The notes beneath the pieces were generated by a model. That model was not told the origin of the DNA, made no database searches, and saw only the letters and a program-made list of their open reading frames with translations. A stretch of 59,620 nt of DNA, taken from positions 1 to 59,620 of IMG/VR virus record IMGVR_UViG_3300009507_000020; one strand, 5' to 3'. Numbering within the stretch: position 1 is the stretch's first letter; each line of letters begins with the position of its first letter. This DNA comes from a virus (taxonomy: Duplodnaviria; Caudoviricetes). Below, one piece after another: positions 16,315 to 59,620 of this stretch. Both the position numbers and the translations under genes were made by a program.

Positions 16315-16356
16315 TTTTTAGTTATATGTTTATGCAAAATCAGTCTAAAAACACCC

Positions 16357-16385: not shown

Positions 16386-16396
16386 GGCCACTTACT

Positions 16397-17677: not shown

Positions 17678-17678
17678 G

Positions 17679-18590: not shown

Positions 18591-18595
18591 AATAT

Positions 18596-34613: not shown

Positions 34614-35461
34614 ATATACTAAGACCCATACAACAAGAGTTCTACGGAGATGACCATCGATGGTTCTTCGGCACAGTTATCAATGCACATCCACCCAGTG
34701 GACTAGAAGGTCGTGTAAAGGTAAGGATCAACGGTGTGCACAATCCAAGTACAGGTGAGATACCCGAAAAGGATCTACCTTGGGCGCAGGTTCTTATCCC
34801 TACTACCGAAGGTGGTGTATCGGGTTATGGTCGTATACCACAACTTCTTGCAGGGTCTTTTGTCTTTGGTTGTTTCCTTGATGGTAAGTCTTCGCAGATA
34901 CCGTTGATCATAGGTTCTCTTCCTAGACTAGAGTTTCCTACCAACGTTCAGTTAGGTAAGACTGGAGTAACAGAGACTAATACACGTCTACAGAACTCTG
35001 TCCAAGAACCCCTCGCACTAGATGATGTTGCAGAGGTGTCGATTCAGTTACGAAGACAGCAGTCCATGAAGTTTTTCCTTGACAATGGATATAATCTAAT
35101 TCACTCTGCTGCCATTACTGGTGCACTACAGGGTGTGTCTAGGTTCCTTACCTTCCACCAGAACGAAGATCCCCGAATAGGCATAGTTTCTTGGGAACGT
35201 TCTGATAGGATTGGTAGTCGTTTTAACGGACTTCTCGCATTCTCACAACAGTTTCAACCCACCTCTGACTGGAGATTATTCTCTATTCAGTTATCGTATG
35301 TGTTGTTTGAGTTGAGGAATAGATATAGTTCTGTCAACCGTAAACTATTAAATACCACAGACATTGAGACCGCGAGCGAAATCGTGAATAAGAATTATGT
35401 TATCACAACAAACAACACAGAGATACTTGCACAGACTGCATACGATGAGGTGTTTGAATGA
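34610..35461 (+). CDS. gp5: gp5 N-terminal OB-fold fused to a degenerate tail-lysozyme-like domain
   Basis: WFFG.V, GRVKVRI.G.H, LPWA, VFGCFLDG...Q.P.IIGS; C-terminal AAITGAL...GIVSW...QLSYV..EL. Confidence 0.8.
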   Translation: MNILRPIQQEFYGDDHRWFFGTVINAHPPSGLEGRVKVRINGVHNPSTGEIPEKDLPWAQVLIPTTEGGVSGYGRIPQLLAGSFVFGCFLDGKSSQIPLIIGSLPRLEFPTNVQLGKTGVTETNTRLQNSVQEPLALDDVAEVSIQLRRQQSMKFFLDNGYNLIHSAAITGALQGVSRFLTFHQNEDPRIGIVSWERSDRIGSRFNGLLAFSQQFQPTSDWRLFSIQLSYVLFELRNRYSSVNRKLLNTTDIETASEIVNKNYVITTNNTEILAQTAYDEVFE

Positions 35462-42128: not shown

Positions 42129-42131
42129 ATA
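42124..42131 (+). promoter_or_regulatory. T4 late promoter
   Basis: TATAAATA overlapping the gp6 stop, before gp8. Confidence 0.75.
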
Positions 42132-42159
42132 GATAAACAAACAATAGAGTGTAAGTTAC

Positions 42160-43521: not shown

Positions 43522-43531
43522 AGGGACAAAA

Positions 43532-46500
43532 ATGGCAACTACATTTACATCTGCGACGTTAAGTGGTTCTTATGATGACGATCTCGATCAAGATAAGGGA
43601 TTTCATCAAATACTATTTAACAGTGGTAGGGCACTTCAAGCACGAGAGTTAACTCAACTTCAAAGTCTGATCTATCAAGAGATGGGTCGTTTTGGACGTA
43701 ACATCTTTAAAGAAGGTGCAGCGGTTAGTTCTGGTGGAATGGCAATCAACGCAGCTCACGAGTTTGTCAAGATCGCATCTACTAATGCAGGTTCTGCATT
43801 TGCAAACATTCCTGTCGGTACGGTTTTCAGAGATGACGTTACTGGTCTTGAAGCCAGAGTACTTGAAGTACAACCACGAAACACAGGTTTGGGTTTCACA
43901 TATGATACTTTATATGTCCAATACATCAATACTGATCAATCTGTTGTTGCCGGTCTACCTGATCGTTTCGGTGACAAAGTTACTCTGTTTGATCAGTCCG
44001 GTTCTGGTTACGAGTTAGTAACTGAGACTCCTAATGCATCTGGTCGTGGCGTACGGTTTGACGTTGCAACAGGTGACTTCTTTGTACTAGGTCGATTTGT
44101 AAAAGCAACTACACAAAACCTCATTATAAGTCCATACACCCAATCCTTTACTGGGGCGATTGGATTTAAGGTTGTTCAAGAAGTTATATCTGTATCAGAT
44201 GATGCGTCCTTGTATGATAACAATGGTGGTGCTGTTAATACTGCATCACCCGGCGCAGATCGATATAGAATAAGATTGATTCTATGTGATCATTCAACTA
44301 TCGCAAGCGACGAAACTTTCGTATTTCTTGCCAATGTCGAGAACTCAAAAATTGTTGAGGAAGTCGATGAGGGTGATGCATACAACAAGATTAACGAACT
44401 CATTGCACTACGTACCGAAGAAGAGTCGGGTGACTATATTGTCAACCCATACACGATTCACTTCGAAGATGAGGTTGCAGGTGATTCCTCTTTGGAATTG
44501 ATTGTATCGACCGGTAGTGCATATGTCAATGGTTATCGAGTAGATACTCCATCACCCGTTAAATTAAAAGTCCCACGTCCTCAGACTACAGACAACCGCA
44601 ACAACGACATTGTTCCTATTGAATACGGTAACTATTTTGTTGCAGATTCTGGTCGAGGTCTACCTAATCTGGATATGGCGACAGTCAATCTAAGCACGTC
44701 ACTGACAGATCCAAGTAGTAATACTATCGGTACTGCAAGAATACGTGCGGTAGAAAAAGGATCTACTCTTCCTAACAACGGAACGCACAAGATTTATGTC
44801 TTTGATATCAATGTCGACTCAGATAAAGACCTTACTGATATCAAGTCAATTGGTACTTCCACAACTAACTTATACAAGTTATCCACTGCGGTCAATGGTG
44901 CGGGAACAGACAGTGATGTGAAGTTGTTCAACACACAAGACAACTCCTTGTTGATGCCTTTGACTCAGAATAGACTCCAATCAATATCTGATATCGTTTT
45001 GAAAGTGCAACGACATGTTGGAAGTAAGACAGTTGCGTCAAGTAAGATTGACATCTCTTCTGTATTGGGTGCAGGCGAATCTTTTGTTGACACCAGTAAT
45101 TGGGTTGTTGCGTCTACTACTCGTGGTTTTATTCCACACACAGTCAATGCATCTAATGGTGAGATAACTCTCTCAGACGTTGCTGACGGTGTTGTTCTTG
45201 AAGTGTTGTACTATGTCCAGAAAACTGGTGCAGTACGTACCAAGACTGAATTGACTGGTATCACTGACACGTTGACCAAACAGACAGGATTTGACGTATA
45301 TAACGACGTTGCATACTGTTACTACGAGTTTGATCATGTTGATGTGACAGAACTAGACTCTGTGAGAGCAACTTTCTCTTCTGGTCTTGACATGTTCAAT
45401 AGTTTTATTTTGGACGATGGTCAGAGAGACAACTTCTATCAACGTGCACGTCTGATCCACAATGGGGAAGACAGTGCACCCAACAACTTGTATGTTAACT
45501 ATAAGAGATTGCGCCACAACAACGATGGTGACTTCTTTGCCGCGTCATCTTACAACACGATAAACTATAGGGATATACCTACTCACGTAAATCAGACTGG
45601 TAATGAAGTAAATCTATTTAATTACTTGGACTTCCGTTCTGATAATGACAATGGTACGTTTGCCAATATCAATTTCCTTCCTAAGAACGGTGACAATGTT
45701 ACCGCAGACATTAGTTACTACCTGCCCCGTGCAGATAAGTTATTGTTGACTCAAGAAGGTGAGTTGCAGTTGTTGATGGGTAACCAAGCAGCAGATCCAC
45801 AGTTCAAACCTACGCCAGAAAATGCGTTAGAGTTGTACAAGATAAAAATGAATCCTAATACGTTAAATGGTCAGGATCTATCTTTCGATCCAGTAGAACA
45901 TAGACATTATACTATGAAGGATATATCTAACCTTGAGGATAAGGTTGATGCATTATCAGAATCTACAGCTTTATCTATACTAGAGTTACGTAACCTTTTA
46001 AGTCCTTCTTTGGATAGTGCGGGAGAAGAAAGACTCGCGATTGGTAATCAATCAGACGATCAATCAGATCACGATACGTCAGACACTGAGAACGTAGATT
46101 ATTCTGCGTCACTAGATCCAGATGCCCAGATTATTTACCCTAAAGCGGCAGAAGAGAACATAAGACTTATGTTCAACAATTCATTGTCTACGGGTGTCAC
46201 TAAAATAGGTGACAACATATACTTGAACCATGATAGCGCAGAGTGGGCATTCCAGTCACTTGCATCTGATCATATTAAAGTCAACCCGTTTGGACATGTA
46301 CAGAATACCGGTACTCTCAAGATGTCACCGTCTTCTGACGAATGGAAAGATACTCAGACAAATGCAAACCGTGCAATTGAAGGTTCTGAAAACTTATCCA
46401 CCAATCAAGCGTTTTTATGGAACTCTTGGCAGTGGAACTGGCAGGGTCGTGTCGGTCTTATAACTCGATCGATTAAGTCCGCTGCAATTCGCAAACGATA

Positions 46501-48802
46501 CGCTGGTAGGACTGTCGATCTTGCACTCATTCCATTCATACGTTCACGTAAGGTCTTCTTCCACGCGAAGGGATTGAAACCCAATACTAGATTCACTCCA
46601 TTCTTTGATGGTATGAAAGTATCCGAGTGGTGTCGTGAAGAGTCGACGTTTGTTCGTTGGTCTGATCGTACCGATGGTTGGGGTAACCGTTATGGATGGA
46701 ACATTGCTGCTCACCCACAGGGATCTTCTGATTTAATCTCTGATGCAAACGGTGAGATCATTGGTTCCTACTTCATACCTTCTGTCCGTGCAGTTCGCGA
46801 AAAGGCAATTAAGAAGTGGGGTAAGAAAGCCGGTGCCAAGTACTTCACTCAACGTAGATTCCGTGCAGGTGTAAGAGAGTTCATGTTGCTAGACATTGAC
46901 AAACCCGATTGGGGTGAAGCAGGGTCTAAAGCATTCTGTTACTATGCAGCAATGGGTATCGCGATACACTCTTTGAATATTTGGAAGTATCTCCGTTATC
47001 CAGATTCCCCACATCCTTATTCATGGTTGAGTAAGAGGGCACAGACTCGCCTTACTAAAGAACAGAAGGAAAGACTGGACGCGGTATCTGCGGGTAATGT
47101 TTTGATAACAGAACCTAAAGTATCTGGTCGATTCGGTACCAATCAGATTCCATTAACTACAACAGAACTGCGTAACATTGACAACAAAAACACAATGTCT
47201 ACAGTTTTGTCAGACTACATTGGTGTGGATCTCAATCACCAAGCGTCTACTGAAGTTAATCCTATTGCACCACCTGAAAATCCATTGTCACAGACGTTTT
47301 ATGTCGACAACCCATATGGATTGGTATTGACCAAACTTCAGTTATACTTCCGTTCGAAAGATACGGGTAACCTTCCCGTGTCCATACACATACGTCCAGT
47401 AGAGAATGGTAAACCTTCTCAAAACATTATCGTGCCAGATTCTCATGTATTTAAGAATCCCGGCGATGTTGATGCGATTGGTACTACACCTATTCTCTCT
47501 ACTGTACAGTCTAGACCTACAACTTTTGAGTTTGATGAACCAATTCATCTACAACCTTGGAAGAGATATGCGATTGTAGTATCATCACAGTCAACTGAAT
47601 ATGAGTTGTTCAGTGCAACCGCAGGTAATCCTGTGTTAGGTTCTTCGGTCAAACGTGTAACTACACAACCAATTCCTGGCACTCTGTTCCTACCACAGAA
47701 CGGTACTAACTGGTTGGAGACTAAGAATCAAGACCTCATGTATCGTCTGTACCGTGCGAAGTTTAACCAAGGTGGTGGTTCTTTGATCTTGAACAACGAA
47801 GATCTTGCTCCTCGTGAGTTAGAGGACAATCCAATCTTAACTACTGCATTGTCTAATCGTGTATTTGTTAAACATATGTGTCACGGTCTGCGAGTAGGAG
47901 ATATTGCAAACCTAGACAGTGCGGAAGGATTCTTCGGTAACACTGCGGCAGACTTTAATGGTAACCACACAGTACAAGAAGTTGATGTACATGGTTATAC
48001 CATTGATGTTGACAGTGCAACGTTCTCTGGGTTCGGTGGTGGAGATAAGATTCGGTCTCAAGGTAACGTTGTCTTTACGACCGCAAATCTTATATTAGAG
48101 AATGCAATACCACGATCTACCTCAATTGATACATCCGCGAAGTTTACTTCTGGATCAAACATTAGTGGTGGAGAAACTCGATTCGTGCAAGATGCACAAT
48201 ATGCACGTATCACCCCTGAAGAAAATACTACTTTTGATTCTCCGAAAACAATCTATAATGCTGCATCCGAAACTTTAAACCTAGGTGCGGGTGTGAGATC
48301 TGCATACTTTAAGGTTGATTTCAAGTCTGGAGATGATTATGTTTCACCGATCATCGACCTACAGAGATCTTCTTTGGTTGCTGCGGGTTACTGTATAGAT
48401 GATCCTTCAATAACACCTCACCTATATCCAGTCTCAGAGACTGCACCTACTGGTGGTACTACTGCATCGAAGCACATTACTAAAGTAGTTGTGTTGCCGG
48501 AACCTGCTGTTGGTATTGATGCACGTGGCGATTGTTGGTTACCTGACAGTTCAGACGTAGACTTCTACTATAGAACTGCACAAGCGGACGAAGATATTAC
48601 TCTCCAACCTTGGATACTTCAAGAACCGAGAGAACCTCTTCCACGGAGAAATGACGGTAACTATAACCGTGCAGAGTATCTTGCGGGTGGTCAGAATGGT
48701 ACATTGAAACCATTCAATCAAGCGCAAACTAAATGGGTTATGAAAGCAGGTAGTATTGCCCCCGCAATTAAAAACCTTGCGATATCGTTTTTAGCGCATT
48801 AA
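43532..48802 (+). CDS. large virion structural protein (VrlC/DUF4815-like)
   Basis: YDDD......F..ILF..GRALQARELTQLQS, PGADRY, RT.EESGDY, AYV.GY, PFIRSR, PLSQTF; start placed at ATG 43532. Confidence 0.85.
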   Translation: MATTFTSATLSGSYDDDLDQDKGFHQILFNSGRALQARELTQLQSLIYQEMGRFGRNIFKEGAAVSSGGMAINAAHEFVKIASTNAGSAFANIPVGTVFRDDVTGLEARVLEVQPRNTGLGFTYDTLYVQYINTDQSVVAGLPDRFGDKVTLFDQSGSGYELVTETPNASGRGVRFDVATGDFFVLGRFVKATTQNLIISPYTQSFTGAIGFKVVQEVISVSDDASLYDNNGGAVNTASPGADRYRIRLILCDHSTIASDETFVFLANVENSKIVEEVDEGDAYNKINELIALRTEEESGDYIVNPYTIHFEDEVAGDSSLELIVSTGSAYVNGYRVDTPSPVKLKVPRPQTTDNRNNDIVPIEYGNYFVADSGRGLPNLDMATVNLSTSLTDPSSNTIGTARIRAVEKGSTLPNNGTHKIYVFDINVDSDKDLTDIKSIGTSTTNLYKLSTAVNGAGTDSDVKLFNTQDNSLLMPLTQNRLQSISDIVLKVQRHVGSKTVASSKIDISSVLGAGESFVDTSNWVVASTTRGFIPHTVNASNGEITLSDVADGVVLEVLYYVQKTGAVRTKTELTGITDTLTKQTGFDVYNDVAYCYYEFDHVDVTELDSVRATFSSGLDMFNSFILDDGQRDNFYQRARLIHNGEDSAPNNLYVNYKRLRHNNDGDFFAASSYNTINYRDIPTHVNQTGNEVNLFNYLDFRSDNDNGTFANINFLPKNGDNVTADISYYLPRADKLLLTQEGELQLLMGNQAADPQFKPTPENALELYKIKMNPNTLNGQDLSFDPVEHRHYTMKDISNLEDKVDALSESTALSILELRNLLSPSLDSAGEERLAIGNQSDDQSDHDTSDTENVDYSASLDPDAQIIYPKAAEENIRLMFNNSLSTGVTKIGDNIYLNHDSAEWAFQSLASDHIKVNPFGHVQNTGTLKMSPSSDEWKDTQTNANRAIEGSENLSTNQAFLWNSWQWNWQGRVGLITRSIKSAAIRKRYAGRTVDLALIPFIRSRKVFFHAKGLKPNTRFTPFFDGMKVSEWCREESTFVRWSDRTDGWGNRYGWNIAAHPQGSSDLISDANGEIIGSYFIPSVRAVREKAIKKWGKKAGAKYFTQRRFRAGVREFMLLDIDKPDWGEAGSKAFCYYAAMGIAIHSLNIWKYLRYPDSPHPYSWLSKRAQTRLTKEQKERLDAVSAGNVLITEPKVSGRFGTNQIPLTTTELRNIDNKNTMSTVLSDYIGVDLNHQASTEVNPIAPPENPLSQTFYVDNPYGLVLTKLQLYFRSKDTGNLPVSIHIRPVENGKPSQNIIVPDSHVFKNPGDVDAIGTTPILSTVQSRPTTFEFDEPIHLQPWKRYAIVVSSQSTEYELFSATAGNPVLGSSVKRVTTQPIPGTLFLPQNGTNWLETKNQDLMYRLYRAKFNQGGGSLILNNEDLAPRELEDNPILTTALSNRVFVKHMCHGLRVGDIANLDSAEGFFGNTAADFNGNHTVQEVDVHGYTIDVDSATFSGFGGGDKIRSQGNVVFTTANLILENAIPRSTSIDTSAKFTSGSNISGGETRFVQDAQYARITPEENTTFDSPKTIYNAASETLNLGAGVRSAYFKVDFKSGDDYVSPIIDLQRSSLVAAGYCIDDPSITPHLYPVSETAPTGGTTASKHITKVVVLPEPAVGIDARGDCWLPDSSDVDFYYRTAQADEDITLQPWILQEPREPLPRRNDGNYNRAEYLAGGQNGTLKPFNQAQTKWVMKAGSIAPAIKNLAISFLAH

Positions 48803-49084: not shown

Positions 49085-52000
49085 ATGTCATACAGACCCC
49101 TAAAAAGTTTATCTGGTGGTGAACTTCAAGAGTTTACTCTTGCAGATGAAGACTCAATCGCCTATCAGGCGGGACTTCACCTTGCGGGTATGGATTCTTC
49201 TGACACGTCTGCATTGTCTAGATACGATCAAGGTAGTGAGTTAGTAGGTACATTCAATAACACCTTCTTTGATGAAACATCCAACGACGACCCTCTGGTT
49301 CTTTCTACAGAGTTTCAGGTTGTATCGACTTCCAATGTCACTAACGGTGTGCATACTATCACTTCTTCGGGTGGTGGTTTACCTCAAACCGTTTATATTG
49401 GTGACACATTAGAACTCAACATTGTACTGAACGCAACTGAAGTCAATGGTGGCGGGTTCGAAACTATTTCTGTTAACGCGACCACTGCGGGTAGCGCAAC
49501 ATTCACCGAGACTATTAATGGAACTCCTGCCCCAACTGTTATTGCGGGTGATGGTTCTATTACATGGCAAGACTTTGTAGATCCCACACTTAGTGGTGAG
49601 TATCGAGGAATCTATCGTTACACGTTGACTTCGACTGGGTCTATCAACATCTCTGTGCAATCAAACACGGTTGACCAAAACAACTCAACTAATGCGGCAG
49701 ATCTAGCGGTAACACTACCCACTATTGAAGTACAAGAGACACGTCCGCCTAGTAGTGTGGAAACTGAAACAGATTTGTTCCAGAGTCCTGCTGCGGATCT
49801 TCCTACTGGTGTTTTAAAAAGAAACCCAATATACTGGCAGACTCAACCACAGGGTCTAAAAGAAATGTCCGACGCAGAGTTGGATATTCTTTGTACTAAG
49901 TTTGCCCGTAAGATTGTAAACAACGAACTTCCTGGCACCTTCCGTCTATCAGATGGTTCGCCTGGATCTGGTTATTTTAAGTTTATTGAAAACATGTTCA
50001 CCGATACGAGAGGTGACGGTACCAATAACTATTATCATATATGGATGAAGGGTTCAAGTACCCCTATTCCCGCTGATCGAAAACCGATGTCCATCTTCCG
50101 TTATAACGGTGTCTTTGCTGGTTTGAAACAAATGTCAGACCCCGAGATACAGTATACCTTTGGTGAACGTGTAAAACAGTTGATCATGACTACTGGTATT
50201 GGTCAGTATCAACTAAGGTCATCATCTCAGGGTACACCAACTTCGCTTGGTACATGGGCAGCACGTGGCACGGCACTTGACACTAGAAGAACATTCATTG
50301 ATGATCCCGGCTATACTGGTCAGGCACCATTTGATACAAATTATACTGGTTCTTACACCCCAGATTACAATACCACTTTCGTTGGTAACTACGAACAGAA
50401 CTATTCATCTGAGTTCGTCGGTAATTACATAGGTTCGTTTATCTCTTTATACACTGGTGACTATGCAGAAGGTTATACCGGTGCGTATGAGAGCGATTTT
50501 GCAAAGAATTACTCCGGTAACTTTGAAAAGACATACGTCGACAATGTCTATTCGGGTAACTTTACACTAGGTTATACTGGTGATTATACGGGTGCAGATG
50601 TAACAGAACAGTTTTCCAACGTATATACTGGTACAGATGTAAGTGAAAACTACTCTTCAATCTATGTTGAAGAAGAATATACAGGTAACTACGGGTCTGA
50701 CTATACAGGTGAATATGAAGGTGATTTTAGTTCTACCTTTCTTGCAAACTATGCAGACCAAGAATACATCTCCGACTACGAAGCCATCTTTACTGGTGAC
50801 TACCAGTCAATATACACCTCACAGTATACTGGAGAGTACGAAGCACTTCTATACGAAACTTCATACAGTGAAGATTTTGTTACAAACTATTTGACTGATT
50901 TCGTTAGAGATTACACCGGTAACTATACTGGTGATTACGAAAGAACAGATGTCACAACCTTTACAGGTGAGTATGCAGGTGACACTCAAGAAACTTACAC
51001 AGGTGATTACACTGGTACGATCGTTGAGTTGTATACCGGTGAATACGTACGTCAGATCTCAGAGACTTACACCGGTGAGTATGGACGTGTTGACGAAGAG
51101 TTGTACACTGGTGATTACGAAGGTGATATCACAGAGACTTATACCGGAGACTATACCCGTGAAACGCCTGTGGTTTATACTGGCGATTACGAACGTGCAG
51201 ATCCTGAAGTCTACACTGGTAACTATAACTCTGCGATAGAAGAACAGTACACCGGAGATTACGAGAGAACTCAAGAAGACAGTTACACTGGATTGTATTC
51301 AGGTGATATACAAGAAGACTACACCGGAGATTACGAGAGAGAAGACGATGAGATCTATGAAGGTCAATACGTTCGTGAGATCCCAGAGAACTACACCGGT
51401 GAATATACTTCAGAAATCATCGAGATTTATAGTGGCAATTACGAGAGAACCCAAGTAGACACTTACACGGGTGATTACGAACGTGCAGATCCTGACACAT
51501 TTACAGGCGAATATGGTCGTATAGACGAGACTAGTTACACCGGTGATTATGAGAGAGCTGACTCAACTTTATTTGCTGGTGCATATGAGGGTGATGTTCT
51601 AGAACCCTACACTGGTGAATACGGTGGTACTATTTTAGAAACATACTCCGGTGATTATACTGGTGAAGTGCCTGAAGAATATATTGGATCTTATATTGGA
51701 TTGAATCAACGCACTTTCTCGGGTAACTATACCGGTATTCCTACAGAACAATACACTGGTATCTATTCTGGTGGTGTTTCTGAAACATATAGTTCTCTAT
51801 ACACTGGTGAGGCACTCGAAGACTACTCTGGAGATTACACAGGTGAGGCACTCGAAGACTACACTGGAGATTATACTGGTGAGATTGCAGAAGACTACAC
51901 CGGTGAGTATGAGTCTCAAATTGCAGAAGACTACACCGGTGATTATGAAGGTATTATTGATGAAACCTATACCGGCAACTATACTGGTGAGATCTCAGAA

Positions 52001-55000
52001 AATTATACTGCACAATATACTGGTGAAATAGAAGAACCGTACATCGGTGAATATACTGGTGCGATCGCAGAAAACTATACTGGCCCTTACGAAGGTATCA
52101 TCATTGAACCTTATACCGGTGAATATACCGGTGAAGTTGCAGAGGGTTACACTGGCGATTATGGTGGTGAAGCACTAGAGACTTACACTGGAGATTATAC
52201 TCGTGTTACTCTTGTCGACTACTCGGGTAACTACGAACGTACAGACGTTGAGAACTATGCCGGTAATTACGAAAGAACCCAAGTAGACACATACACCGGC
52301 GAATATGGTCGTACCACCGAAACCACATATACTGGGGACTACGAAAGAAACCAAGTAGACGTATACACTGGTAACTATGAACGTGTACAAACAGACGGAT
52401 TTACGGGTGACTACGAACGTGTGCAGGTAGACGTATACACAGGTAACTATGTGCGAGATGACGGCACTACGTTCTCTGGTGATTACACAGGTGCGCCTGG
52501 CGAGAATTACTCCGGTGATTATACTGGTGCTCCCGCAGAACCTTACTCAGGTGACTATGAAAGAGCAGATCCAACTAATTTTACTGGTGATTACGGTGGC
52601 GATGTAGTTGAAAACTATACTGGTTCCTATACACGTACTCAAGCAGATTCTTACTCTGGCAATTATACAGGTGCTCCCGCAGAAACTTATACTGGTGACT
52701 ATGAACGTGATCAGACCGATCCATACACCGGTAACTATACAGGTTCAATAGAAGAAGGGTATACCGGAAACTATGATCGGACTGAAATAGAACCATACAC
52801 CGGTGATTACATAGGTGAAGTTTTACAGACCTACACTGGTAACTATAACGTGGGTTATGTGGGTACCTACGTAGGTAACTACACGGGTGTTGCAATAGAA
52901 GAATATACTGGTGATTATACTGGTGCACCCGTAGAGAACTATCAGGGTCAATATGCTGGTACTACGCTAGAAACCTATACTGGTAACTATACTGGCGTTC
53001 CTACCGAACCTTACACTGGTGGATATGCTGGTGATATTATTGAAACTTACACTGGTGATTATACAGGTGCTCCTGCTACTCCTTTCACAGGAAACTATAC
53101 TGGTGCGCCTGGTGAGAACTACTCTGGCGATTATACCGGTATTCCTGTTGAACCTTATACTGGTGGGTATCAAGGTGTTGTTGGTGAGAACTACACAGGT
53201 AACTATACCGGATCCCCCGCAGAGAATTACACTGGTAACTACACTGGTGCTCCCGCAGAGAACTACACTGGTGAATATACAGGTGCGGTTGCAGAAACAT
53301 ACACCGGTGATTATGAAGGTGGTGCGTTAGAAACCTACACCGGTAACTATCAACGTATTCAAGTAGAAACGTATAGTGGTAACTACACACGTATTCAAGC
53401 AGACACTTACACTGGTAACTACACACGTGTTCAAACTGATGCCTACACTGGTAACTACACTCGTGATGCAAGTGAAACATACACTGGTAACTATGCAGGT
53501 GCAGTACAAGAGACTTATACCGGTAATTATGAAGGCGGTGCAGCAGAAACTTATACCGGTGACTACACTGGTGGTGCAGCAGAACCATATTCGGGAAATT
53601 ATACCGGTGTACCCACAGAGAGTTATACTGGCCCTTATACTGGACAGGTAACAGAAAACTACACCGGAAATTATGAAGGTCAGGTCACTGAAAGTTACAG
53701 TGGTGATTATGCGGGTGCAGTACAAGAGACCTATACTGGTGGTTATGAACGTTCTCAAGTAACACCATTTACGGGTAACTATGTAGGCGAAGTACAAGAA
53801 ACGTACACGGGTTCTTACACACGTACAACTAACGAAGCATATACTGGAGATTTCGCTCGAGATGAGTTAGAAGAATATGTTTCTTCCTACACTCGTGTTG
53901 GGGGTGCATCATACATCCAAGCCGGTGGATCATATATTGGGAACATTACAGGGAGTCAGCTCTCAATAAGACACCACGGTGGTTCATCTTGGCATGTAAT
54001 GAAGTCAGGTTCGAGTACGATCACCTATTCTGCATTATATACTGGGACAGTAATACAAAGAATAACCTCTGGTGGCACTGTCGTCACAGAAGTTTCGACC
54101 ACTAGTGGCCCAGTCAATGGAACCTTTACTGCCAACCAAGGCGACAAGATTGTTTCAAATGGGCCAGATTATCCTATTCATATATTCGTTCAGAATTACG
54201 GTCAAGCAGTTGTACCCGAATCATTAGCGGGCGAAGACTTTCAGGGTTATATGAATAGATATGAACCCGGCACTCTCCACTTCTATTCTAAACATGAAGC
54301 TCGTGTAAAGATCTTCAATCCTGGCAATGCGAATGGTCGTGGATACGATGACCAATCCAACCTATTAATGGAGTTTGAGAAGTGGCACTCACTTGGTGCA
54401 GGAGCTCTGCCAGGTTTTGCTCAGAACGGTGACGGTAACAGTCGTATCATTGATGACTCTCCGAAAGGTCAGGATATTGTCTGGGATGTATCTAACCAAG
54501 ACGCAGACTCAAACGCAGACGGTGGTTGGAACGCTTCTCAAGTATCGATTGATTCAACTAAAAAGTATCGTTTTTCTACATGGGTAAGACGTAAAGTGAA
54601 GGGTAATGGTCACTTTTACTTGGGTACCCGTGCATTCAATAGTGGTGGTACTGTCCTTGCCATGCCACGAAGAGTGGCTGGATCTACAACTACAAACCCG
54701 TACTTTGAAGTCAACGGCAACTACAACGAATGGGGTGGGTCTTCAACTGAGTGGTTCCTTGTTGTTGGTCACGTATGGCCCGAAGGATCTGGCACCGGTG
54801 CGGTAGATACTGAATCTGGTATCTACAACACGTCTGGTACAAAAGTTGATACCATTGAACAAGATTACTTATGGCCAACAGGAACAGTAAAAACTTACCA
54901 CCGTGCTTTCTTGTACTACTCGACGGACACCACTACTAATCAACAGTTCTGGGAACCTCGTCTTGACGACACTACTAATCCTAGTTGTCCCTCTGTAGCG

Positions 55001-58000
55001 GACATGATTAGTTATGGTACTTGGGATAGTGTAGTTGAATTGCCTGGCGGTACTAACACTGTTACTTCACACACAATGAGTAGTACGACCGGATTCTTTA
55101 ACTTTCACTCAAACAGACCTATTATTGCTACTTCTGAAGGTACGGGTAGTATTGATTTATCGATGGTACCACCTACTTCTAATGTTGGTGAAAGGATTTA
55201 TCATCGTCGTGCGTACACTGCTGGTAGTAGATCAAATACTGCTGCGAGTGGAATAGACAACGGTAATCAGGTTTCGTTTCACGACTCTTCTCGTATGTCA
55301 CACACTGAGATTGGTGATGGGGCTGGTGGTAATAACTGTTGGGGTTTACCAGAAAGATTTATGTCTAACACATACTCATGGGGTCAAGCACTTCGTGATT
55401 ATGTGATTGTAATGCCATCTACTGGTTATGTTAGGATTTCAAGTTGGAATGGTTCTGCTTGGACAGAACACGTGACACACTTCAGTTCTGGTTCTGCGGA
55501 CAGTCCTACTTATATATTGCGTACTGGTAACAACGGATTCAACACAACCGGTAGCACTGTCGCAGGTAACACCACTAACTTTAACTCGAATACTTTGTGG
55601 AAGTTTGAAGGTACAACCAATTTCTATCTTGCTGTCAACGATCAGAGTGACGACGAAGAAACCTTATTGGGTTGGCAGTCTTCTCTTGAAGACGCTGTTT
55701 ACACTACAAATCAATTCACCGGTAACTATACGCGTGATGCACAAGAGACATACAGCGGTGACTATGCAGGTGGAGTTCAAGAAACCTATACCGGTAACTA
55801 TACCCGTGTTCAAACAAACACATTTGCTGGCAACTATACCGGAGCCCCCGCAGAACCTTACACAGGCACTTATGAAGGTGTGATTACCGAACCTTATACC
55901 GGTAGTTATGCTGGTGCAGTACAAGAAGGTTATACTGGCCCATATACTGGTGCGCCTGGCGAGAACTATGTAGGTTCTTATACAGGTGTAATTGCAGAAA
56001 ACTACGTCGGTGGTTATGATCGTGCTGCACAACAAGGATATACCGGTACATACCAAGGCGCAGTCCAAGAGACTTACACCGGTAACTATGCACGTGTTCA
56101 ACTACAATCATACACAGGTAACTATACTGGCGCGCCTGCTGAAAACTACGTAGGATCATACGCACGTGATCAAGTAACACCATACACAGGTAACTATACT
56201 GGTGCTCCCGCAGAGAACTATGTAGGTAACTATACTGGTGCGCCTGCTGAGAACTATGCAGGTAACTATGCACGTACTCAAGTGACACCATTTACCGGTG
56301 ATTATGCAGGTGATGTACAAGAAACTTATTCAGGTAACTACCAACGTGATCAAACCAATGTTTATTCTGGTGACTATGCGGGTAATCCAGGCGAGAACTA
56401 TGTCGGTTCTTACGGTGGTTCAGTCCAAGAAACCTACACTGGTACATATCAAGGTGCGGTTCAAGAGACATACAGCGGTAACTATGCCGGTGGAGTTCAA
56501 GAAACCTATACCGGTAACTACCAACGTGATCAAACCAATGTTTACACGGGTAACTATGCACGTACTCAAGTGACACCATTTACCGGTGACTATGCACGTG
56601 ATCAACTACAACCATATACTGGTTCTTACGGTGGTGCAGTTCAAGAGACCTATACAGGTAACTACACTGGTGCTCCCGCTGAGAACTATGTGGGATCATA
56701 TTCACGTTCTGCACAAGAAACCTATACCGGTAACTACGCTGGTGCACCCGTAGAAAACTATGTTGGTTCCTATACTCGTGTTCAAGGAACAACATATACC
56801 GGTAACTACACTGGTGCACCCGCAGAAAACTATGTAGGTAGTTATGTCCGTGATGCACAACAAGGATATACTGGTACCTATCAGGGTGTTTCGGGTGAAG
56901 CATACACCGGAGATTATGGTGGTACTGCGTCAGAACTCTTCACCGGATCTTACGTAGGTAGTTATGTTGCTGTCGGAAATAGCACCCCCGCAGGTGGTTT
57001 TGTGGGTGCTGGCGGATATGAAAGTGGAGGTAGTGGTGGTACTAACTATCAAGGCACTTATGCTGGTCTCACTTCAGGTGTTTTTGAAGGGGATCTGCCC
57101 GGTGGGCCAGGCGAACCAGAGATTTACTTGGGGACAAGTAATGTAAACTATACCGGTAGTTATATTGGTGGAGAAACTGGCACAAACACTTACGTTGGCC
57201 CCGCTGTAACATACACCGGAAACTTCGTCGGTGCTGCACAACCCTATAATGCGGCTAATTATGTGAGCAACGATGGGCCACAGTATACAGCTTTTCAACA
57301 CGAGTGGAAGGTGTCGACAGCGGGTGGGTCTAACAACATCTTTATCTATTGGCCAAATGGTCTTTGGGGTACTACAACTGGTACTTTCTCGACTACATCC
57401 ACAACGATTAATGGACAAAGCTTCACTCGTGGTAGTTTTGTGGGTTTCGCTAGTGGTTTTGTTTCTTATTATTTGACCGCGACCAATGTATCGTTTGGTG
57501 CTACTTACGTTGGTGGTGGTGGTACTTACGTCGACAATTTCGTTTCAGGTACCGAGACAACTTACAACAGTGGTGGTGCAACCTACGTAGGTAACTATCA
57601 AGGTGCCTATCAAGGCACTTATGCTGGTGGTTACCAACGTATTCAAGCAACACCTTTCATCGGTGACTACGTACGTGATTCACAACAAGGATATACAGGA
57701 ACGTATCAAGGTGCGGTTCAAGAAACCTATACCGGTAACTATGCAAGAGACCAAGCTGCTGCGTACACGGGTAACTATCAAGGTGATGTACAAGAAACTT
57801 ATGCAGGTAACTATGGACGTACACAACTAGAGAATTATGTCGGTTCTTACGGTGGTGCAGTCCAAGAGACTTATACCGGTAACTATGCACGTGCTCAAGC
57901 AGAAAACTATGTAGGTAGTTACTCTCGTTCTGCACAACAGGCATACACCGGTAACTACGTTGGTGTTCCTCTTGAAACATACTCTGGTGACTATGCAGGT

Positions 58001-59620
58001 AATCCTGGCGAGAACTATACAGGTAACTACACTGGTGCTCCCGCAGAGAACTATGTAGGATCATATGCACGTACACAACTACAACCATACGTAGGGTCAT
58101 ATGTCCGTGATGCACAACAATCTTATACCGGTAGTTACGCTCGTTCTGCACAAGAAACATACACCGGTAATTATGCACGTGTTCAAATACAACCATATAC
58201 AGGTAACTACACAGGTGCACCCGCAGAAAACTATGTTGGTTCCTATTCACGTACACAAATTGATACCTATGCAGGCAACTATGCAGGTGCTCCCGCAGAG
58301 AACTATGCTGGTAACTATACACGTATTGCAGCAGAGACCTATACCGGTAACTATACACGTGATCAAGTCGATACGTACGGCGGTAACTATGCCGGTGGAG
58401 TACAAGAAACATACACGGGTAACTATGCACGTGATCAGGTAGACACTTACACTGGCGATTATGCGGGTTCTCCTGCCGAGAACTATGTAGGTAGTTATGT
58501 CCGTGATGCACAACAAGGATATACTGGATCTTATGTGGGTGTTATTAGTGAAACATACACCGGAAACTATGACCGCGCTGCACAAGAGACTTATACCGGT
58601 AACTACACACGTACTCAAGAAGAGGGTTACACTGGTAGTTACGACCGTACTGAGAATCAATCCTACACGGGTAATTATGTACGTGCTTCACAAGAGACAT
58701 ACGCTGGTAACTATACACGGGAACAAGTAGAATCCTACACGGGTGACTACACAGGTGCACCCGCAGAAAACTATGTTGGTTCATATGCACGTACTCAAGT
58801 AACACCTTATACTGGTACCTATCAGGGAGTTGTTGCAGAAAACTTCACCGGAGACTATACTGGTGCGGTGGACGAAACGTATGTTGGTAACTATGCAGGT
58901 ACTGTTTCTGTTCAGTTTGCTGGTCAGTACGAAGGCGCGGTTCAAGAAAGTTATACAGGATCGTACGAACGTGATGACGCGGCTGCTTACGGTGGTAACT
59001 ATGTAGGTGTCGTTTCAGAGAGTTACACTGGTAGTTATGCCCGTACACAGATTCAAACCTATACTGGTAACTACACACGTATTCAAGCAGAGAATTATGC
59101 GGGTAACTACGAACGAACCCAAGAACAGGGGTTCACTGGTGACTACGAGAGAACTCAGGTTGAAAACTATGTTGGTAACTACCAGAGAACTCAAGCAGAG
59201 AATTATGTAGGTAACTATGTACGTATTCAAGCAGAGAATTATGTAGGTAGTTATTCACGCACCCAAGCAGAGAATTATGTTGGTAACTACACTGCGGACG
59301 CACTAGAAACGTACACTGGTGATTATACTGGTTCTCCTGCCGAGAACTATACTGGTGAATATACTGGTGCACCCGTAGAAAACTACTCAGGGAACTATAC
59401 TGGTGCGCCTGGCGAGAACTATACGGGTAACTATACTCGTGTTGACGGAACTCAGTTTACTGGTAACTATACTCGTATTCAATCAGAGGGTTATACTGGC
59501 AACTATGAACGTGATCAAACCGATGTCTATACCGGTAACTATACTCGTGATCAAGTAGATACCTTTACCGGTAGTTATACACGTGACTCCGGAGAAACAT
59601 TCACTGGTGACTACGCGAGA
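49085..59620 (+). CDS. giant Tyr/Thr/Gly repeat virion fibre-like protein, 3'-truncated (at least 3512 aa), not in ORF track
   Basis: Hand-translated frame from ATG 49085 (MSYRPLKSLSGGELQEF...) has no stop up to the last codon (...ETFTGDYAR). Confidence 0.93.
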   Translation, partial: MSYRPLKSLSGGELQEFTLADEDSIAYQAGLHLAGMDSSDTSALSRYDQGSELVGTFNNTFFDETSNDDPLVLSTEFQVVSTSNVTNGVHTITSSGGGLPQTVYIGDTLELNIVLNATEVNGGGFETISVNATTAGSATFTETINGTPAPTVIAGDGSITWQDFVDPTLSGEYRGIYRYTLTSTGSINISVQSNTVDQNNSTNAADLAVTLPTIEVQETRPPSSVETETDLFQSPAADLPTGVLKRNPIYWQTQPQGLKEMSDAELDILCTKFARKIVNNELPGTFRLSDGSPGSGYFKFIENMFTDTRGDGTNNYYHIWMKGSSTPIPADRKPMSIFRYNGVFAGLKQMSDPEIQYTFGERVKQLIMTTGIGQYQLRSSSQGTPTSLGTWAARGTALDTRRTFIDDPGYTGQAPFDTNYTGSYTPDYNTTFVGNYEQNYSSEFVGNYIGSFISLYTGDYAEGYTGAYESDFAKNYSGNFEKTYVDNVYSGNFTLGYTGDYTGADVTEQFSNVYTGTDVSENYSSIYVEEEYTGNYGSDYTGEYEGDFSSTFLANYADQEYISDYEAIFTGDYQSIYTSQYTGEYEALLYETSYSEDFVTNYLTDFVRDYTGNYTGDYERTDVTTFTGEYAGDTQETYTGDYTGTIVELYTGEYVRQISETYTGEYGRVDEELYTGDYEGDITETYTGDYTRETPVVYTGDYERADPEVYTGNYNSAIEEQYTGDYERTQEDSYTGLYSGDIQEDYTGDYEREDDEIYEGQYVREIPENYTGEYTSEIIEIYSGNYERTQVDTYTGDYERADPDTFTGEYGRIDETSYTGDYERADSTLFAGAYEGDVLEPYTGEYGGTILETYSGDYTGEVPEEYIGSYIGLNQRTFSGNYTGIPTEQYTGIYSGGVSETYSSLYTGEALEDYSGDYTGEALEDYTGDYTGEIAEDYTGEYESQIAEDYTGDYEGIIDETYTGNYTGEISENYTAQYTGEIEEPYIGEYTGAIAENYTGPYEGIIIEPYTGEYTGEVAEGYTGDYGGEALETYTGDYTRVTLVDYSGNYERTDVENYAGNYERTQVDTYTGEYGRTTETTYTGDYERNQVDVYTGNYERVQTDGFTGDYERVQVDVYTGNYVRDDGTTFSGDYTGAPGENYSGDYTGAPAEPYSGDYERADPTNFTGDYGGDVVENYTGSYTRTQADSYSGNYTGAPAETYTGDYERDQTDPYTGNYTGSIEEGYTGNYDRTEIEPYTGDYIGEVLQTYTGNYNVGYVGTYVGNYTGVAIEEYTGDYTGAPVENYQGQYAGTTLETYTGNYTGVPTEPYTGGYAGDIIETYTGDYTGAPATPFTGNYTGAPGENYSGDYTGIPVEPYTGGYQGVVGENYTGNYTGSPAENYTGNYTGAPAENYTGEYTGAVAETYTGDYEGGALETYTGNYQRIQVETYSGNYTRIQADTYTGNYTRVQTDAYTGNYTRDASETYTGNYAGAVQETYTGNYEGGAAETYTGDYTGGAAEPYSGNYTGVPTESYTGPYTGQVTENYTGNYEGQVTESYSGDYAGAVQETYTGGYERSQVTPFTGNYVGEVQETYTGSYTRTTNEAYTGDFARDELEEYVSSYTRVGGASYIQAGGSYIGNITGSQLSIRHHGGSSWHVMKSGSSTITYSALYTGTVIQRITSGGTVVTEVSTTSGPVNGTFTANQGDKIVSNGPDYPIHIFVQNYGQAVVPESLAGEDFQGYMNRYEPGTLHFYSKHEARVKIFNPGNANGRGYDDQSNLLMEFEKWHSLGAGALPGFAQNGDGNSRIIDDSPKGQDIVWDVSNQDADSNADGGWNASQVSIDSTKKYRFSTWVRRKVKGNGHFYLGTRAFNSGGTVLAMPRRVAGSTTTNPYFEVNGNYNEWGGSSTEWFLVVGHVWPEGSGTGAVDTESGIYNTSGTKVDTIEQDYLWPTGTVKTYHRAFLYYSTDTTTNQQFWEPRLDDTTNPSCPSVADMISYGTWDSVVELPGGTNTVTSHTMSSTTGFFNFHSNRPIIATSEGTGSIDLSMVPPTSNVGERIYHRRAYTAGSRSNTAASGIDNGNQVSFHDSSRMSHTEIGDGAGGNNCWGLPERFMSNTYSWGQALRDYVIVMPSTGYVRISSWNGSAWTEHVTHFSSGSADSPTYILRTGNNGFNTTGSTVAGNTTNFNSNTLWKFEGTTNFYLAVNDQSDDEETLLGWQSSLEDAVYTTNQFTGNYTRDAQETYSGDYAGGVQETYTGNYTRVQTNTFAGNYTGAPAEPYTGTYEGVITEPYTGSYAGAVQEGYTGPYTGAPGENYVGSYTGVIAENYVGGYDRAAQQGYTGTYQGAVQETYTGNYARVQLQSYTGNYTGAPAENYVGSYARDQVTPYTGNYTGAPAENYVGNYTGAPAENYAGNYARTQVTPFTGDYAGDVQETYSGNYQRDQTNVYSGDYAGNPGENYVGSYGGSVQETYTGTYQGAVQETYSGNYAGGVQETYTGNYQRDQTNVYTGNYARTQVTPFTGDYARDQLQPYTGSYGGAVQETYTGNYTGAPAENYVGSYSRSAQETYTGNYAGAPVENYVGSYTRVQGTTYTGNYTGAPAENYVGSYVRDAQQGYTGTYQGVSGEAYTGDYGGTASELFTGSYVGSYVAVGNSTPAGGFVGAGGYESGGSGGTNYQGTYAGLTSGVFEGDLPGGPGEPEIYLGTSNVNYTGSYIGGETGTNTYVGPAVTYTGNFVGAAQPYNAANYVSNDGPQYTAFQHEWKVSTAGGSNNIFIYWPNGLWGTTTGTFSTTSTTINGQSFTRGSFVGFASGFVSYYLTATNVSFGATYVGGGGTYVDNFVSGTETTYNSGGATYVGNYQGAYQGTYAGGYQRIQATPFIGDYVRDSQQGYTGTYQGAVQETYTGNYARDQAAAYTGNYQGDVQETYAGNYGRTQLENYVGSYGGAVQETYTGNYARAQAENYVGSYSRSAQQAYTGNYVGVPLETYSGDYAGNPGENYTGNYTGAPAENYVGSYARTQLQPYVGSYVRDAQQSYTGSYARSAQETYTGNYARVQIQPYTGNYTGAPAENYVGSYSRTQIDTYAGNYAGAPAENYAGNYTRIAAETYTGNYTRDQVDTYGGNYAGGVQETYTGNYARDQVDTYTGDYAGSPAENYVGSYVRDAQQGYTGSYVGVISETYTGNYDRAAQETYTGNYTRTQEEGYTGSYDRTENQSYTGNYVRASQETYAGNYTREQVESYTGDYTGAPAENYVGSYARTQVTPYTGTYQGVVAENFTGDYTGAVDETYVGNYAGTVSVQFAGQYEGAVQESYTGSYERDDAAAYGGNYVGVVSESYTGSYARTQIQTYTGNYTRIQAENYAGNYERTQEQGFTGDYERTQVENYVGNYQRTQAENYVGNYVRIQAENYVGSYSRTQAENYVGNYTADALETYTGDYTGSPAENYTGEYTGAPVENYSGNYTGAPGENYTGNYTRVDGTQFTGNYTRIQSEGYTGNYERDQTDVYTGNYTRDQVDTFTGSYTRDSGETFTGDYAR
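50924..53911 (+). repeat. coding repeat block A: 83 units of 36 bp / 12 aa
   Basis: Strict 36-nt register from YTGDYERTDVTT to YVSSYTRVGGAS. Confidence 0.93.
55715..56938 (+). repeat. coding repeat block B: 34 units of 36 bp / 12 aa
   Basis: FTGNYTRDAQET ... YTGDYGGTASEL. Confidence 0.93.
57620..59620 (+). repeat. coding repeat block C: 56 units (last one partial) of 36 bp / 12 aa
   Basis: YAGGYQRIQATP ... FTGDYAR, running off the window. Confidence 0.93.

What the first reader, a model, noticed from the sequence alone, without database searches (positions are those of the whole stretch)
50924..53119. Prediction of unseen sequence: 61 unpaired units of block A dictate the repeat order beyond the window
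Seen: A1-A61 have no partner inside the window. Inference: if the hairpin is real, the ORF continues after C56 with R x7, one irregular unit (facing A54, YTGNYNVGYVGT), RGRGRGRGRR, G x8, R x17, then GGGGRGGRGRGGRGGRRG (Ser at A9, A14 and A28 treated as G-class). The 12-mer array should end near window coordinate 61,830, making two arms of 117 units (~1400 residues each). At ~3.3 A per extended residue the upper bound is a fibre of roughly 0.45 micrometre.
Basis: inference. Interest (0 to 1): 0.88.

Follow-up and report, generated by a model that had tools for sequence, protein, structure and literature searches.

The report
Self-complementary repeat code in giant phage fibre
A giant tail-fibre-like protein of a marine T4-like phage carries two kinds of 12-residue repeat whose order in its back half is the reversed complement of the order in its front half, which implies that the chain pairs with itself antiparallel and lets unseen sequence be predicted almost exactly.

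Summary
Inside the window, the reversed complement of the class string of arrays A+B equals array C in 54 of 54 comparable units.

The contig ends at the window's end, so the proposed direct check cannot be run. The closest complete homologue (88% identical, same A-class string) shows the predicted 61-unit string at 60 of 61. Two others show 59 of 61, where the extra miss is a compensatory flip (A20 Gly to Arg, facing unit Arg to Gly). A divergent fragment matches 24 of 24.

Metagenome contigs of the window's own lineage run past the window's end, co-linear with the homologue. A distant relative in phage C48C1, with different tetrad repeats, has its own Arg-faces-Gly mirror (83 R-G, 3 R-R pairs).

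Best reading: a baseplate-linked fibre whose chain folds back on itself, with an Arg/small code that sets the register. No structure supports this yet. I found no description of such a code in print.

The parts
49085..59620 (+). Giant ORF, 3512 aa in the window, 3'-open. About 4480 aa expected by homology.
   Evidence: Complete homologues are 4476-4484 aa.
49085..50314 (+). N-terminal globular domain (aa 1-410), shared with all relatives. Inferred attachment end.
   Evidence: 55% identical in P0004/P0005. Phage C48C1 matches query residues 248-582 at 36.7%. No Pfam or PHROG hit.
50297..50923 (+). Base region with an aromatic residue every 4th position (tetrad repeats). In homologues it faces a like region after the C arm.
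   Evidence: spacings almost all 4 on both sides, measured in P0008
50924..53119 (+). The finding: units A1-A61, whose partners lie beyond the contig end.
53120..53911 (+). Units A62-A83, facing C57(partial)-C36.
53912..55714 (+). About 600-aa globular module inserted exactly at a unit boundary of arm 1. The facing units C35|C36 are adjacent, so it is a lateral bulge. It contains a carbohydrate-binding-module-like jelly roll (modelled stretch 54293-55075).
   Evidence: AF2 pLDDT 81. Foldseek top matches are CBM4/16/22, E from 3e-5. 1225 relatives.
55715..56938 (+). Units B1-B34, facing C35-C2.
56939..57583 (+). Irregular unit B35 plus the turn domain of about 200 aa (inferred distal tip).
   Evidence: No Pfam or PHROG hit.
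57584..59620 (+). Return arm: C1 (irregular), C2-C56 and the first 7 residues of C57. The contig breaks here.
43502..48802 (+). Upstream 1766-aa protein with DUF4815 (context).
   Evidence: Pfam E 1.7e-47; phrog_358 E 5.7e-292
40332..43521 (+). T4-type baseplate wedge genes: gp6-like, and a wedge subunit matching phrog_438 (context).

Best explanation
The ORF encodes a giant fibre protein (about 4480 aa) of an uncultured marine T4-like myophage, sitting directly after the baseplate wedge genes.

Its shaft is built from tetrads ([YF]-x-G-x), grouped into 12-residue units of two classes. The small class is YTG[DN]YTG[AVE][VPI]xE[NT]. The Arg class is YTG[ND]Y[ET]R[TD][QD]x[EDQ]x.

Arm 1 is A1-A83, then a laterally bulged carbohydrate-binding module, then B1-B34. 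It runs out to a turn domain of about 200 aa. Arm 2 (C2-C118) runs back antiparallel, so each unit lies against one unit of the other arm, and the C terminus returns to the N-terminal domain.

At every rung an Arg at position 7 lies against a Gly/Ser/Ala at position 7 of the facing unit: a large residue into a hole, and never Arg against Arg. Because the order of the classes is aperiodic, only one register satisfies all rungs. The code therefore works as a register-setting barcode for a very long, otherwise monotonous fold-back.

Shown: the mirror-complement rule, its predictive power, compensatory changes, residue-level coupling, and the gene context.

Inferred: physical contact, fold-back within one chain (rather than between chains), beta-ribbon geometry, trimeric state, tip and attachment roles, and length.
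For: 1. In the window, 54 of 54 comparable units are complementary at one offset and 33-68% at the 79 others.

2. In the complete homologue P0003, 109 of 110 G/R-comparable pairs are complementary, and all 6 pairs with Ser/Ala at position 7 have Ser/Ala facing Arg. The pairing runs seamlessly across the 600-aa insert.

3. The blind prediction holds: 60 of 61, 59 of 61, 59 of 61 and 24 of 24.

4. Compensatory changes. A20 is Gly with the facing unit Arg in P0008 (the A-less fragment P0006 also has Arg at that place). A20 is Arg with the facing unit Gly in P0003/P0009. P0008 has 4-aa deletions in both facing units B35 and C1.

5. Residue-level coupling between facing units exceeds a local-partner null on the anti-diagonal: G6-R6 z about 9.6, G10-R4 z 7.5-9.7, G2-R10 z about 7.4, G4-R10 z 6.6-8.1. 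The parallel diagonal apart from 6-6 is low, z -0.9 to 2.2. Glu6 never faces Glu6 (0 of 36 pairs with Glu at position 6 of the Arg unit). Gln10 faces Ser4 in 15 of 20. Pro9 faces Asn4 in 27 of 33.

6. Independent instance. The C48C1 protein, with different repeats, has a mirror at i+j=2664 with 83 R-G, 3 R-R and 13 G-G pairs, z -8.7. Its arms are about aa 890-1292 and 1372-1774 around an 80-aa turn, and aromatic faces aromatic.

7. In P0004/P0005 (55% identical N domain), pairing the two short arrays from their outer ends by analogy puts all 7 of 7 Arg units against Gly/Ser, with no Arg-Arg pair (pairing read by eye).

8. There is no DNA palindrome.

9. Context: gp6-like, wedge and DUF4815 genes lie upstream. 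The homologue in C48C1 lies among annotated tail-fibre genes. In pelagimyophages the genes after VrlC are tail fibres (PMC7029224, passages read).

10. Window-lineage contigs continue co-linearly past the contig end.
Against: There is no structural support. AF2 of B23-turn-C14 gave mean pLDDT 39: arms about 57 and all beta, turn domain about 22, on a 4-row alignment.

The rule is 'Arg faces small', not strict complementarity. C1/B35 is Gly-Gly. P0004 has two Ser-Ser pairs. C48C1 has 13 G-G and 3 R-R pairs.

Only one class flip and one paired deletion were seen among four close sequences, two of which are near-duplicates.

The coupling statistics use units related by duplication and may be inflated.

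Sequence alone cannot tell an intramolecular hairpin from antiparallel pairing between chains.

The phase within a unit (position 7 directly opposite position 7) is inferred, not shown. A residue-level scan cannot fix it in this family, because Arg7 could also face the constant Gly3.

No virion or proteome evidence shows that the protein is a fibre.

The window lineage's own remaining sequence was seen only as partial difference tables, with two stretches uncovered.
Confidence: 0.7

Rival explanations
1. The same antiparallel Arg/small pairing occurs, but between different chains. Arm 1 of one chain lies against arm 2 of another (a domain-swapped antiparallel dimer, or exchange within a higher oligomer), giving a rod twice as long with N and C ends at both extremities.
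For: A mirror-complement code is equally satisfied by an antiparallel homo-oligomer, and every sequence test made here is blind to this difference.
Against: The arms meet at a compact turn domain, and paired 4-aa deletions sit right beside it. In C48C1 the two arms are adjacent in sequence around an 80-aa turn. A baseplate-attached fibre with attachment domains at both ends is hard to reconcile with the conserved N-terminal domain and the gene context. This last point is inference.
Confidence: 0.2
2. The arms pair as described, but each 12-residue unit is a compact rung (solenoid-like stacking of about 4.8 A per unit). The shaft is then about 55-60 nm, not hundreds of nm.
For: 12-residue coils exist in some beta-helical proteins (recalled, not tested here). 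The length claim of the finding is only an upper bound.
Against: The low-confidence AF2 model has long strands of 6-11 residues through the arms rather than one short strand per unit (weak). A tetrad period with alternating aromatic/Gly fits a flat strand face (inference).
Confidence: 0.25
3. The mirror order is a by-product of the gene's duplication history or of nucleic-acid constraints, with no contact between the arms.
For: Repeat arrays evolve by duplication, and facing regions share a local 'flavour' of residues.
Against: No inverted DNA repeat exists, and the reverse strand would not encode these units. Tandem duplication cannot create a reversed complement 1400 residues away. The compensatory flip and paired deletions, coupling above a local null, and an independent mirror in a protein with different repeats all argue against it.
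Confidence: 0.03

Closest known systems
Bacteriophage T4 long-tail-fibre tip, gp37 needle domain (structure of Bartual et al. [quoted passage not shown]
   Same: A fibre of a T4-type phage in which each chain runs out to a distal domain and back, so that antiparallel strands form the shaft and the distal domain is the tip.
   Different: The gp37 needle is about 150 A long (PMC3004832, passage read) and is held by His-coordinated iron (PMC6957217, passage read). Here there are 117 units per arm, no HxH motif in the units, no Pfam match for the three globular parts scanned, and a binary Arg/small code that gp37 is not known to have.
Hypothetical protein WJE88074.1 of Phage C48C1 (OQ984149.1, Kyanoviridae), 3347 aa
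   Same: It matches query residues 248-582 of the N-terminal part at 36.7%. By eye, the central module and the C-terminal ...ETYTLYVRV motif look shared. It lies in the tail-fibre module and has its own Arg-faces-Gly antiparallel mirror.
   Different: Its repeats are tetrads and hexamers ([FY]xGN against STRT), not 12-mers. Its hairpin covers only about 400 aa per arm, and several extra small globular domains follow. Its turn domain is not significantly similar. It is annotated only as hypothetical.
Repeat-built trimeric phage and virus fibre shafts, e.g. the T4 gp5 triple beta-helix with octapeptide repeats (PMC3004832, passage read); the adenovirus triple beta-spiral (recalled)
   Same: Short sequence repeats with conserved Gly and hydrophobic positions build a long beta-structured shaft.
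   Different: Those shafts are parallel, three-fold intertwined and need no mirror order. Period and motif differ (8 or 15 residues against 4/12).
Register- and partner-specifying complementarity in coiled coils and collagen heterotrimers (recalled general knowledge, not tested here)
   Same: Complementary residues at facing positions select one partner and one register among many near-equivalent ones.
   Different: Those codes act over tens of residues, mostly through charge pairs in helices. Here a two-letter unit code spans about 1400 residues per arm of a beta-type repeat.

Membership tests
Tail fibre / host-recognition gene of marine T4-like myophages | Gene lies in the structural operon directly after the baseplate wedge genes and the large DUF4815 gene. 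(That DUF4815 is the VrlC family is recalled.) | tested here: met
   gp6-like (Pfam E 1e-20), wedge subunit phrog_438 (E 3.1e-59) and DUF4815 (E 1.7e-47) lie immediately upstream. PMC7029224 (passages read): genes downstream of VrlC are the tail fibres in most genomes.
Tail fibre / host-recognition gene of marine T4-like myophages | Homologue lies in an annotated tail-fibre module of a complete phage genome. | tested here: met
   In C48C1 the homologue lies between 'tail assembly chaperone' and 'L-shaped tail fiber protein assembly', after 'baseplate wedge tail fiber protein connector'. The labels are the depositor's.
Tail fibre / host-recognition gene of marine T4-like myophages | Protein is present in the virion as a fibre. 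| not testable with these tools
   No proteome or micrograph is available. The phage is uncultured.
T4 gp37-type receptor-binding tip | Sequence membership (gp37 families in Pfam/PHROGs). | tested here: not met
   The N, central and turn domains have 0 Pfam and 0 PHROG families.
T4 gp37-type receptor-binding tip | HxH iron-binding repeats along the needle. | tested here: not met
   The unit consensus has no His.
T4 gp37-type receptor-binding tip | Chain runs out and back, forming antiparallel strands. | tested here: inconclusive
   It is implied strongly by the mirror-complement code, but no structure exists. AF2 confidence is low.
Carbohydrate-binding module (jelly-roll CBM4/16/22-like) for the central subdomain | Beta-sandwich fold similar to solved CBMs. 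| tested here: met
   AF2 pLDDT 81, pTM 0.82. Foldseek PDB: CBM4-2 1k42, E 3.8e-5, TM 0.44/0.64. CBM16 and CBM22 follow, and phage tail fibre/tailspike chains appear lower in the list. This is fold level only, at 9-15% identity.
Carbohydrate-binding module (jelly-roll CBM4/16/22-like) for the central subdomain | Sugar-binding residues and activity. | not tested
   No ligand-site comparison was made.

The most novel reading that the evidence does not exclude
A protein counterpart of a nucleic-acid hairpin. A two-letter code (Arg against small at position 7 of each 12-residue unit, and at tetrad level in relatives) is written as a reversed complement along two arms of about 1400 residues each. 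It uniquely sets the register of a fold-back beta-ribbon fibre that could approach 0.4-0.5 micrometre. The code evolves by 'pair flips' and paired indels, as RNA stems do, and it defines a previously unrecognised fibre architecture shared by a family of giant proteins in marine T4-like phages.
Probability: 0.5. Interest if true: 0.92.

Novelty: new variant of a known kind. Interest (0 to 1): 0.85.

Why it matters
If the arms do pair, this is a natural protein whose long-range fold can be read, and unseen sequence predicted, from a binary complementarity rule.

- It gives a testable design principle for setting register in very long repeat proteins, and a covariation handle for proteins like that used for RNA.
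- It explains a class of giant 'hypothetical' genes in abundant marine myophages. The window's stretch is held by 20 runs from 9 studies.
- These genes routinely break short-read assemblies: the window, L005, L006 and L007 all end inside this gene.
- It suggests these phages carry unusually long adhesion fibres with a sugar-binding knob. That would bear on how they find scarce hosts in seawater.

Tried and rejected
- **Direct extension.** The held genome is only the window. An exact search of viral contigs with the window's last 42 nt found 0 matches.
- **Complex prediction**, A63-A83 against C36-C56: no verdict, score 0.00 under the mark. This is neither support nor counter-evidence.
- **AF2 of B23-turn-C14**: pLDDT 39, unusable for topology.
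- **Laid contigs**: no cover at L008 16493-16633 or at about 17894-18281. Only 40 of 237 difference rows were shown, so the window lineage's 61 classes could not be read off fully.
- **Residue-level local scoring of Arg-Gly anti-diagonals**: not discriminating in the 12-mer family, because Arg7 can always face the constant Gly3 at another phase. Dropped.
- **Global coupling against a full shuffle**: confounded by regional composition, so it was replaced by the local-partner null. Two huge z values there (G3-R2, G11-R5) come from singletons and were ignored.
- **Turn-domain homology between the window and C48C1:** BLASTP best E 0.003, over repeat-like residues only. Not claimed.
- **ESM Atlas, N domain:** best score 0.79, below any useful level.
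- **PDB profile search with A5**: it matched only the second, lectin-like domain of the 440-aa relatives, which is not in the window's stretch.
- **Literature searches**: no description of this protein family or of a mirror-complement repeat code was found. 'C48C1' gave only an unrelated paper. The bioRxiv tail-fibre atlas (10.1101/2024.10.28.620165) has 0 occurrences of fold back, antiparallel or hairpin.
- **tRNAs:** none in the window.
- **Paper supplements:** not consulted. Supplementary tables of PMC7029224 might list such genes.
Full report
**What is at the coordinates.** The window's last 10.5 kb is one open reading frame, 49085..59620 on the + strand. It is 3512 aa and has no stop before the window ends. 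Read in 12-residue steps from nt 50924, residues 614-1345 form exactly 61 units of the form [YF]-x-G-x-[YF]-x-(G or R)-x-x-x-x-x. Ser stands at position 7 in A9, A14 and A28, and there is one irregular unit, A54 = YTGNYNVGYVGT.

The protein is laid out as follows:
- an N-terminal domain (aa 1-410);
- a stretch with an aromatic residue every fourth position (aa about 405-613);
- array A (83 units);
- a 600-aa globular module;
- array B (34 units plus one irregular unit);
- a domain of about 200 aa;
- array C (one irregular unit, 55 regular units and a 7-residue stub).

**The rule behind the prediction is real.** I wrote each unit as G or R by its position 7. I then took the reversed complement of A+B and compared it with C. 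It agrees in 54 of 54 comparable units at one offset. At the other 79 offsets, agreement is 33-68%. The pairing crosses the 600-aa module without a slip: B1 faces C35 and A83 faces C36. The mirror is not a DNA palindrome, because only four short, poor inverted matches exist.

**Why the suggested check cannot be run, and what replaced it.** The genome held for this window is the window itself, one contig with no terminal repeat. I therefore looked for relatives.
- The turn domain found an IMG/VR contig with a complete 4484-aa homologue, P0003.
- The central module found two metagenome contigs with complete homologues, P0008 (4476 aa) and P0009 (4484 aa).
- The C-terminal part found three 5'-cut fragments.

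Identity to the window protein is 88.2% for P0008 (3089 of 3504), 83.9% for P0003 and 83.3% for P0009. P0003 and P0009 are 96.6% alike and count as one lineage. The fragment L005 is only 75% identical in DNA to L008, so it is a third lineage.

**The prediction tested.** In P0003, pairing C units with the reversed A+B units gives 109 complementary pairs of 110 G/R-comparable pairs. The one miss is the pair of irregular units next to the turn. All 6 further pairs with Ser or Ala at position 7 have Ser or Ala facing Arg.

- P0008, whose A+B class string is the window's own: 60 of 61.
- P0003 and P0009: 59 of 61.
- The last 24 units of the fragment P0006: 24 of 24.

100,000 shuffles of the observed string reached at most 47 of 61 (mean 30). 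The string placed anywhere else in the arrays reached at most 42.

The constant miss is the 7th predicted Arg unit. In reality two irregular units (FTGDYEASYAG., then a Y-rich unit) face A55 and A54. The unit count is as predicted, 117 regular units per arm. After the partner of A1 the array continues as tetrad-type repeats, and the protein runs about 234 aa further, to ...IETYTLYVRVD. By homology the window's gene would therefore stop near nt 62,540, while the regular G/R units end near 61,830 as predicted.

**The window's own lineage.** The window's stretch 53900-59620 is held (71% or more of sampled words) by 20 runs from 9 studies of marine and estuary metagenomes. I laid the contigs of four runs from four studies on L008:15100-18900. 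They are co-linear with L008, with 0 gaps in the long pieces. Identity is about 95-97% over 15100-16492 and 16634-17379, and about 88% over 17386-17890 and 18282-18900.

These contigs belong to the window's lineage. In the 625 nt that overlap the window, the window differs from L008 at 31 places. All 15 of the 15 listed 'other letters' there are the window's letters, and one contig carries 27 differences over 15100-15705, the same number as the window. Two contigs bridge the window's end (L008 nt 15724) and run on to 16205, which is 13 units. None of the 25 listed differences between 15725 and 16492 falls in a position-7 codon. However, 197 rows were not shown and two stretches had no cover, so this is partial support only.

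**Compensatory change.**
- A20 is Gly-class in the window and P0008, and the facing unit in P0008 is Arg-class. The fragment P0006, whose A arm is not held, also has Arg at that place.
- In P0003/P0009, A20 is Arg-class (YTGDYTRQTPVT) and the facing unit is Gly-class (YTGDYEGGALET).
- In P0008 the Arg unit on the other arm reads FTGDYTRETPVP, so the pair looks flipped rather than lost.
- P0008 also has 4-residue deletions in both B35 and C1, which face each other.

**Residue-level signal.** The two classes have distinct consensus sequences, and Glu11 is nearly invariant only in the small class (105 of 109). I measured coupling between facing G and R units against a null in which the partner is replaced by another Arg unit within 5 units. 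Coupling is high on the anti-diagonal: 6-6 z about 9.6, 10-4 z 7.5-9.7, 2-10 z about 7.4, 4-10 z 6.6-8.1, and also 4-8, 8-4 and 10-2. It is low on the parallel diagonal apart from 6-6.

Concretely, Glu at position 6 never faces Glu (0 of 36). 'GxxQET' units face 'Y.GSY' Arg units in 15 of 20. 'GAPAEN' units face 'YTGNY' Arg units in 27 of 33. In the base regions both arms carry an aromatic residue every 4 residues. The aromatic-on-aromatic phase (21 coincidences at i+j=4857, 22 at 4853) is the same phase at which position 7 faces position 7.

**An independent instance.** The only relative in the deposited phage collection is a 3347-aa hypothetical protein of Phage C48C1 (Kyanoviridae), which lies in its tail-fibre module. 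Its repeats are different: [FY]xGN tetrads and STRT tetrads. A residue-level mirror scan finds i+j=2664 with 83 Arg-Gly, 3 Arg-Arg and 13 Gly-Gly pairs (z -8.7). Of the 83, 64 lie at i=850-1300. The arms are aa 890-1292 and 1372-1774 around an 80-aa turn, and aromatic residues face aromatic residues between the Arg-Gly pairs.

Two further complete relatives, P0004 and P0005 (2654 and 2503 aa, 55% identical N domain), have short 12-mer arrays at both ends. Paired from their outer ends, all 7 of 7 Arg units face Gly or Ser. There are two Ser-Ser pairs and no Arg-Arg pair (pairing read by eye and by analogy).

**What the protein is.** Upstream lie T4-type baseplate genes: tube cap, hub/lysozyme, gp6-like, a wedge subunit and a 1766-aa DUF4815 protein. 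The gp6-like protein is closest to C48C1 (39.9%), pelagimyophages, Methylophilales phages and cyanomyophages. A paper on pelagimyophages states that the genes after VrlC are the tail fibres and open the host-recognition cluster (PMC7029224, passages read). That DUF4815 equals VrlC is recalled.

The central module contains a widespread 220-aa subdomain: 1225 relatives at E<=0.001 among 1.84 billion representatives. It folds with confidence (pLDDT 81), and its nearest solved folds are carbohydrate-binding modules CBM4, CBM16 and CBM22. Phage tail-fibre and tailspike chains appear further down the list. The N-terminal, central and turn domains have no Pfam or PHROG family.

**How it most likely works.** The chain leaves the N-terminal (baseplate) domain as arm 1 and carries a sugar-binding knob as a side bulge about 35 units before the tip. 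It turns in the 200-aa distal domain and returns as arm 2, so the C terminus ends beside the N-terminal domain.

On one face of each strand, large and small residues alternate: Tyr1, Gly3, Tyr5, Gly/Arg7, position 9, Glu11. In the antiparallel pair, large residues lie against small ones. Position 7 is the only rung that varies, and it is always Arg against small. Because the class order is aperiodic, every out-of-register pairing would put many Arg against Arg or small against small (33-68% agreement at wrong offsets). The code therefore fixes one register.

The steps from 'code' to 'contact', the intrachain topology, the beta-ribbon geometry, a trimeric state and the length are all inferences. 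At about 3.3 A per residue the shaft would be about 0.46 micrometre. If the units stack compactly it would be about 56 nm.

**Comparison with what is known.** The nearest known architecture is the T4 gp37 tip, a six-stranded antiparallel needle made by three chains (PMC9659904, passage read). It is about 150 A long (PMC3004832, passage read) and stabilised by His-bound iron (PMC6957217, passage read). The present protein shares the out-and-back logic. It fails sequence membership, lacks HxH, is roughly thirty times longer per arm, and has a unit code with no counterpart that I know of. Six literature searches found no description of this family or of such a code. Supplements were not consulted.

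**What failed.** AF2 of the turn with 12-14 units on each side had pLDDT 39. Complex prediction gave no verdict.

**Verdict.** Two small corrections apply. The underlying phenomenon, a reversed-complement repeat code in a giant phage fibre protein, is real, unusual and not described in the papers searched.

Noticed in passing
L001:14701-24744 (Phage C48C1, OQ984149.1): The 3347-aa 'hypothetical protein' has its own Arg-faces-Gly antiparallel mirror (arms aa 890-1292 and 1372-1774). After the central module it has four or so small globular domains, each flanked by short repeat arrays. These could be further small fold-backs or side branches.
   Followed up: partly
window 54293-55075: The central subdomain folds as a CBM-like jelly roll. 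It belongs to a very large family (1225 representatives), many of them 440-aa proteins that add a lectin-like (LamG-type) second domain ending ...YNRxLSxxEVxQNF.
   Followed up: partly
window 59620; L005, L006, L007 5' ends: Four of the eight contigs holding this gene family break inside this gene (the window, L005, L006, L007). The gene is therefore systematically truncated in short-read assemblies and probably under-counted.
   Followed up: no
C termini of P0002-P0009: All relatives, including those with quite different repeats, end with the same motif ...(I/T)ETYTLYVR(V/I)(D/A). Its role (assembly, chaperone binding or docking to the N domain) is unknown.
   Followed up: no
L008:12635-14191 against window 56507-58087 (alignment A2, columns 147-150 and 362-365): P0008 lacks 4 residues in B35 and 4 residues in C1, the two irregular units that face each other beside the turn domain.
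   Followed up: yes
L008 17853-17863, in laid contigs: Window-lineage contigs show a 1-nt insertion and a 1-nt deletion 4-9 nt apart relative to L008. They sit at slightly different places in two pairs of runs: either a short locally shifted frame or an alignment effect.
   Followed up: no
window 35458-37356: A 632-aa protein with a C-terminal amidase/endolysin-like domain (phrog_822, E 3.9e-35) sits inside the baseplate gene block, next to the hub/lysozyme gene.
   Followed up: no
window 53900-59620: This stretch is held nearly complete by 20 public runs from 9 studies of marine and estuary metagenomes dated 2014-2025, so the phage lineage is widespread.
   Followed up: partly
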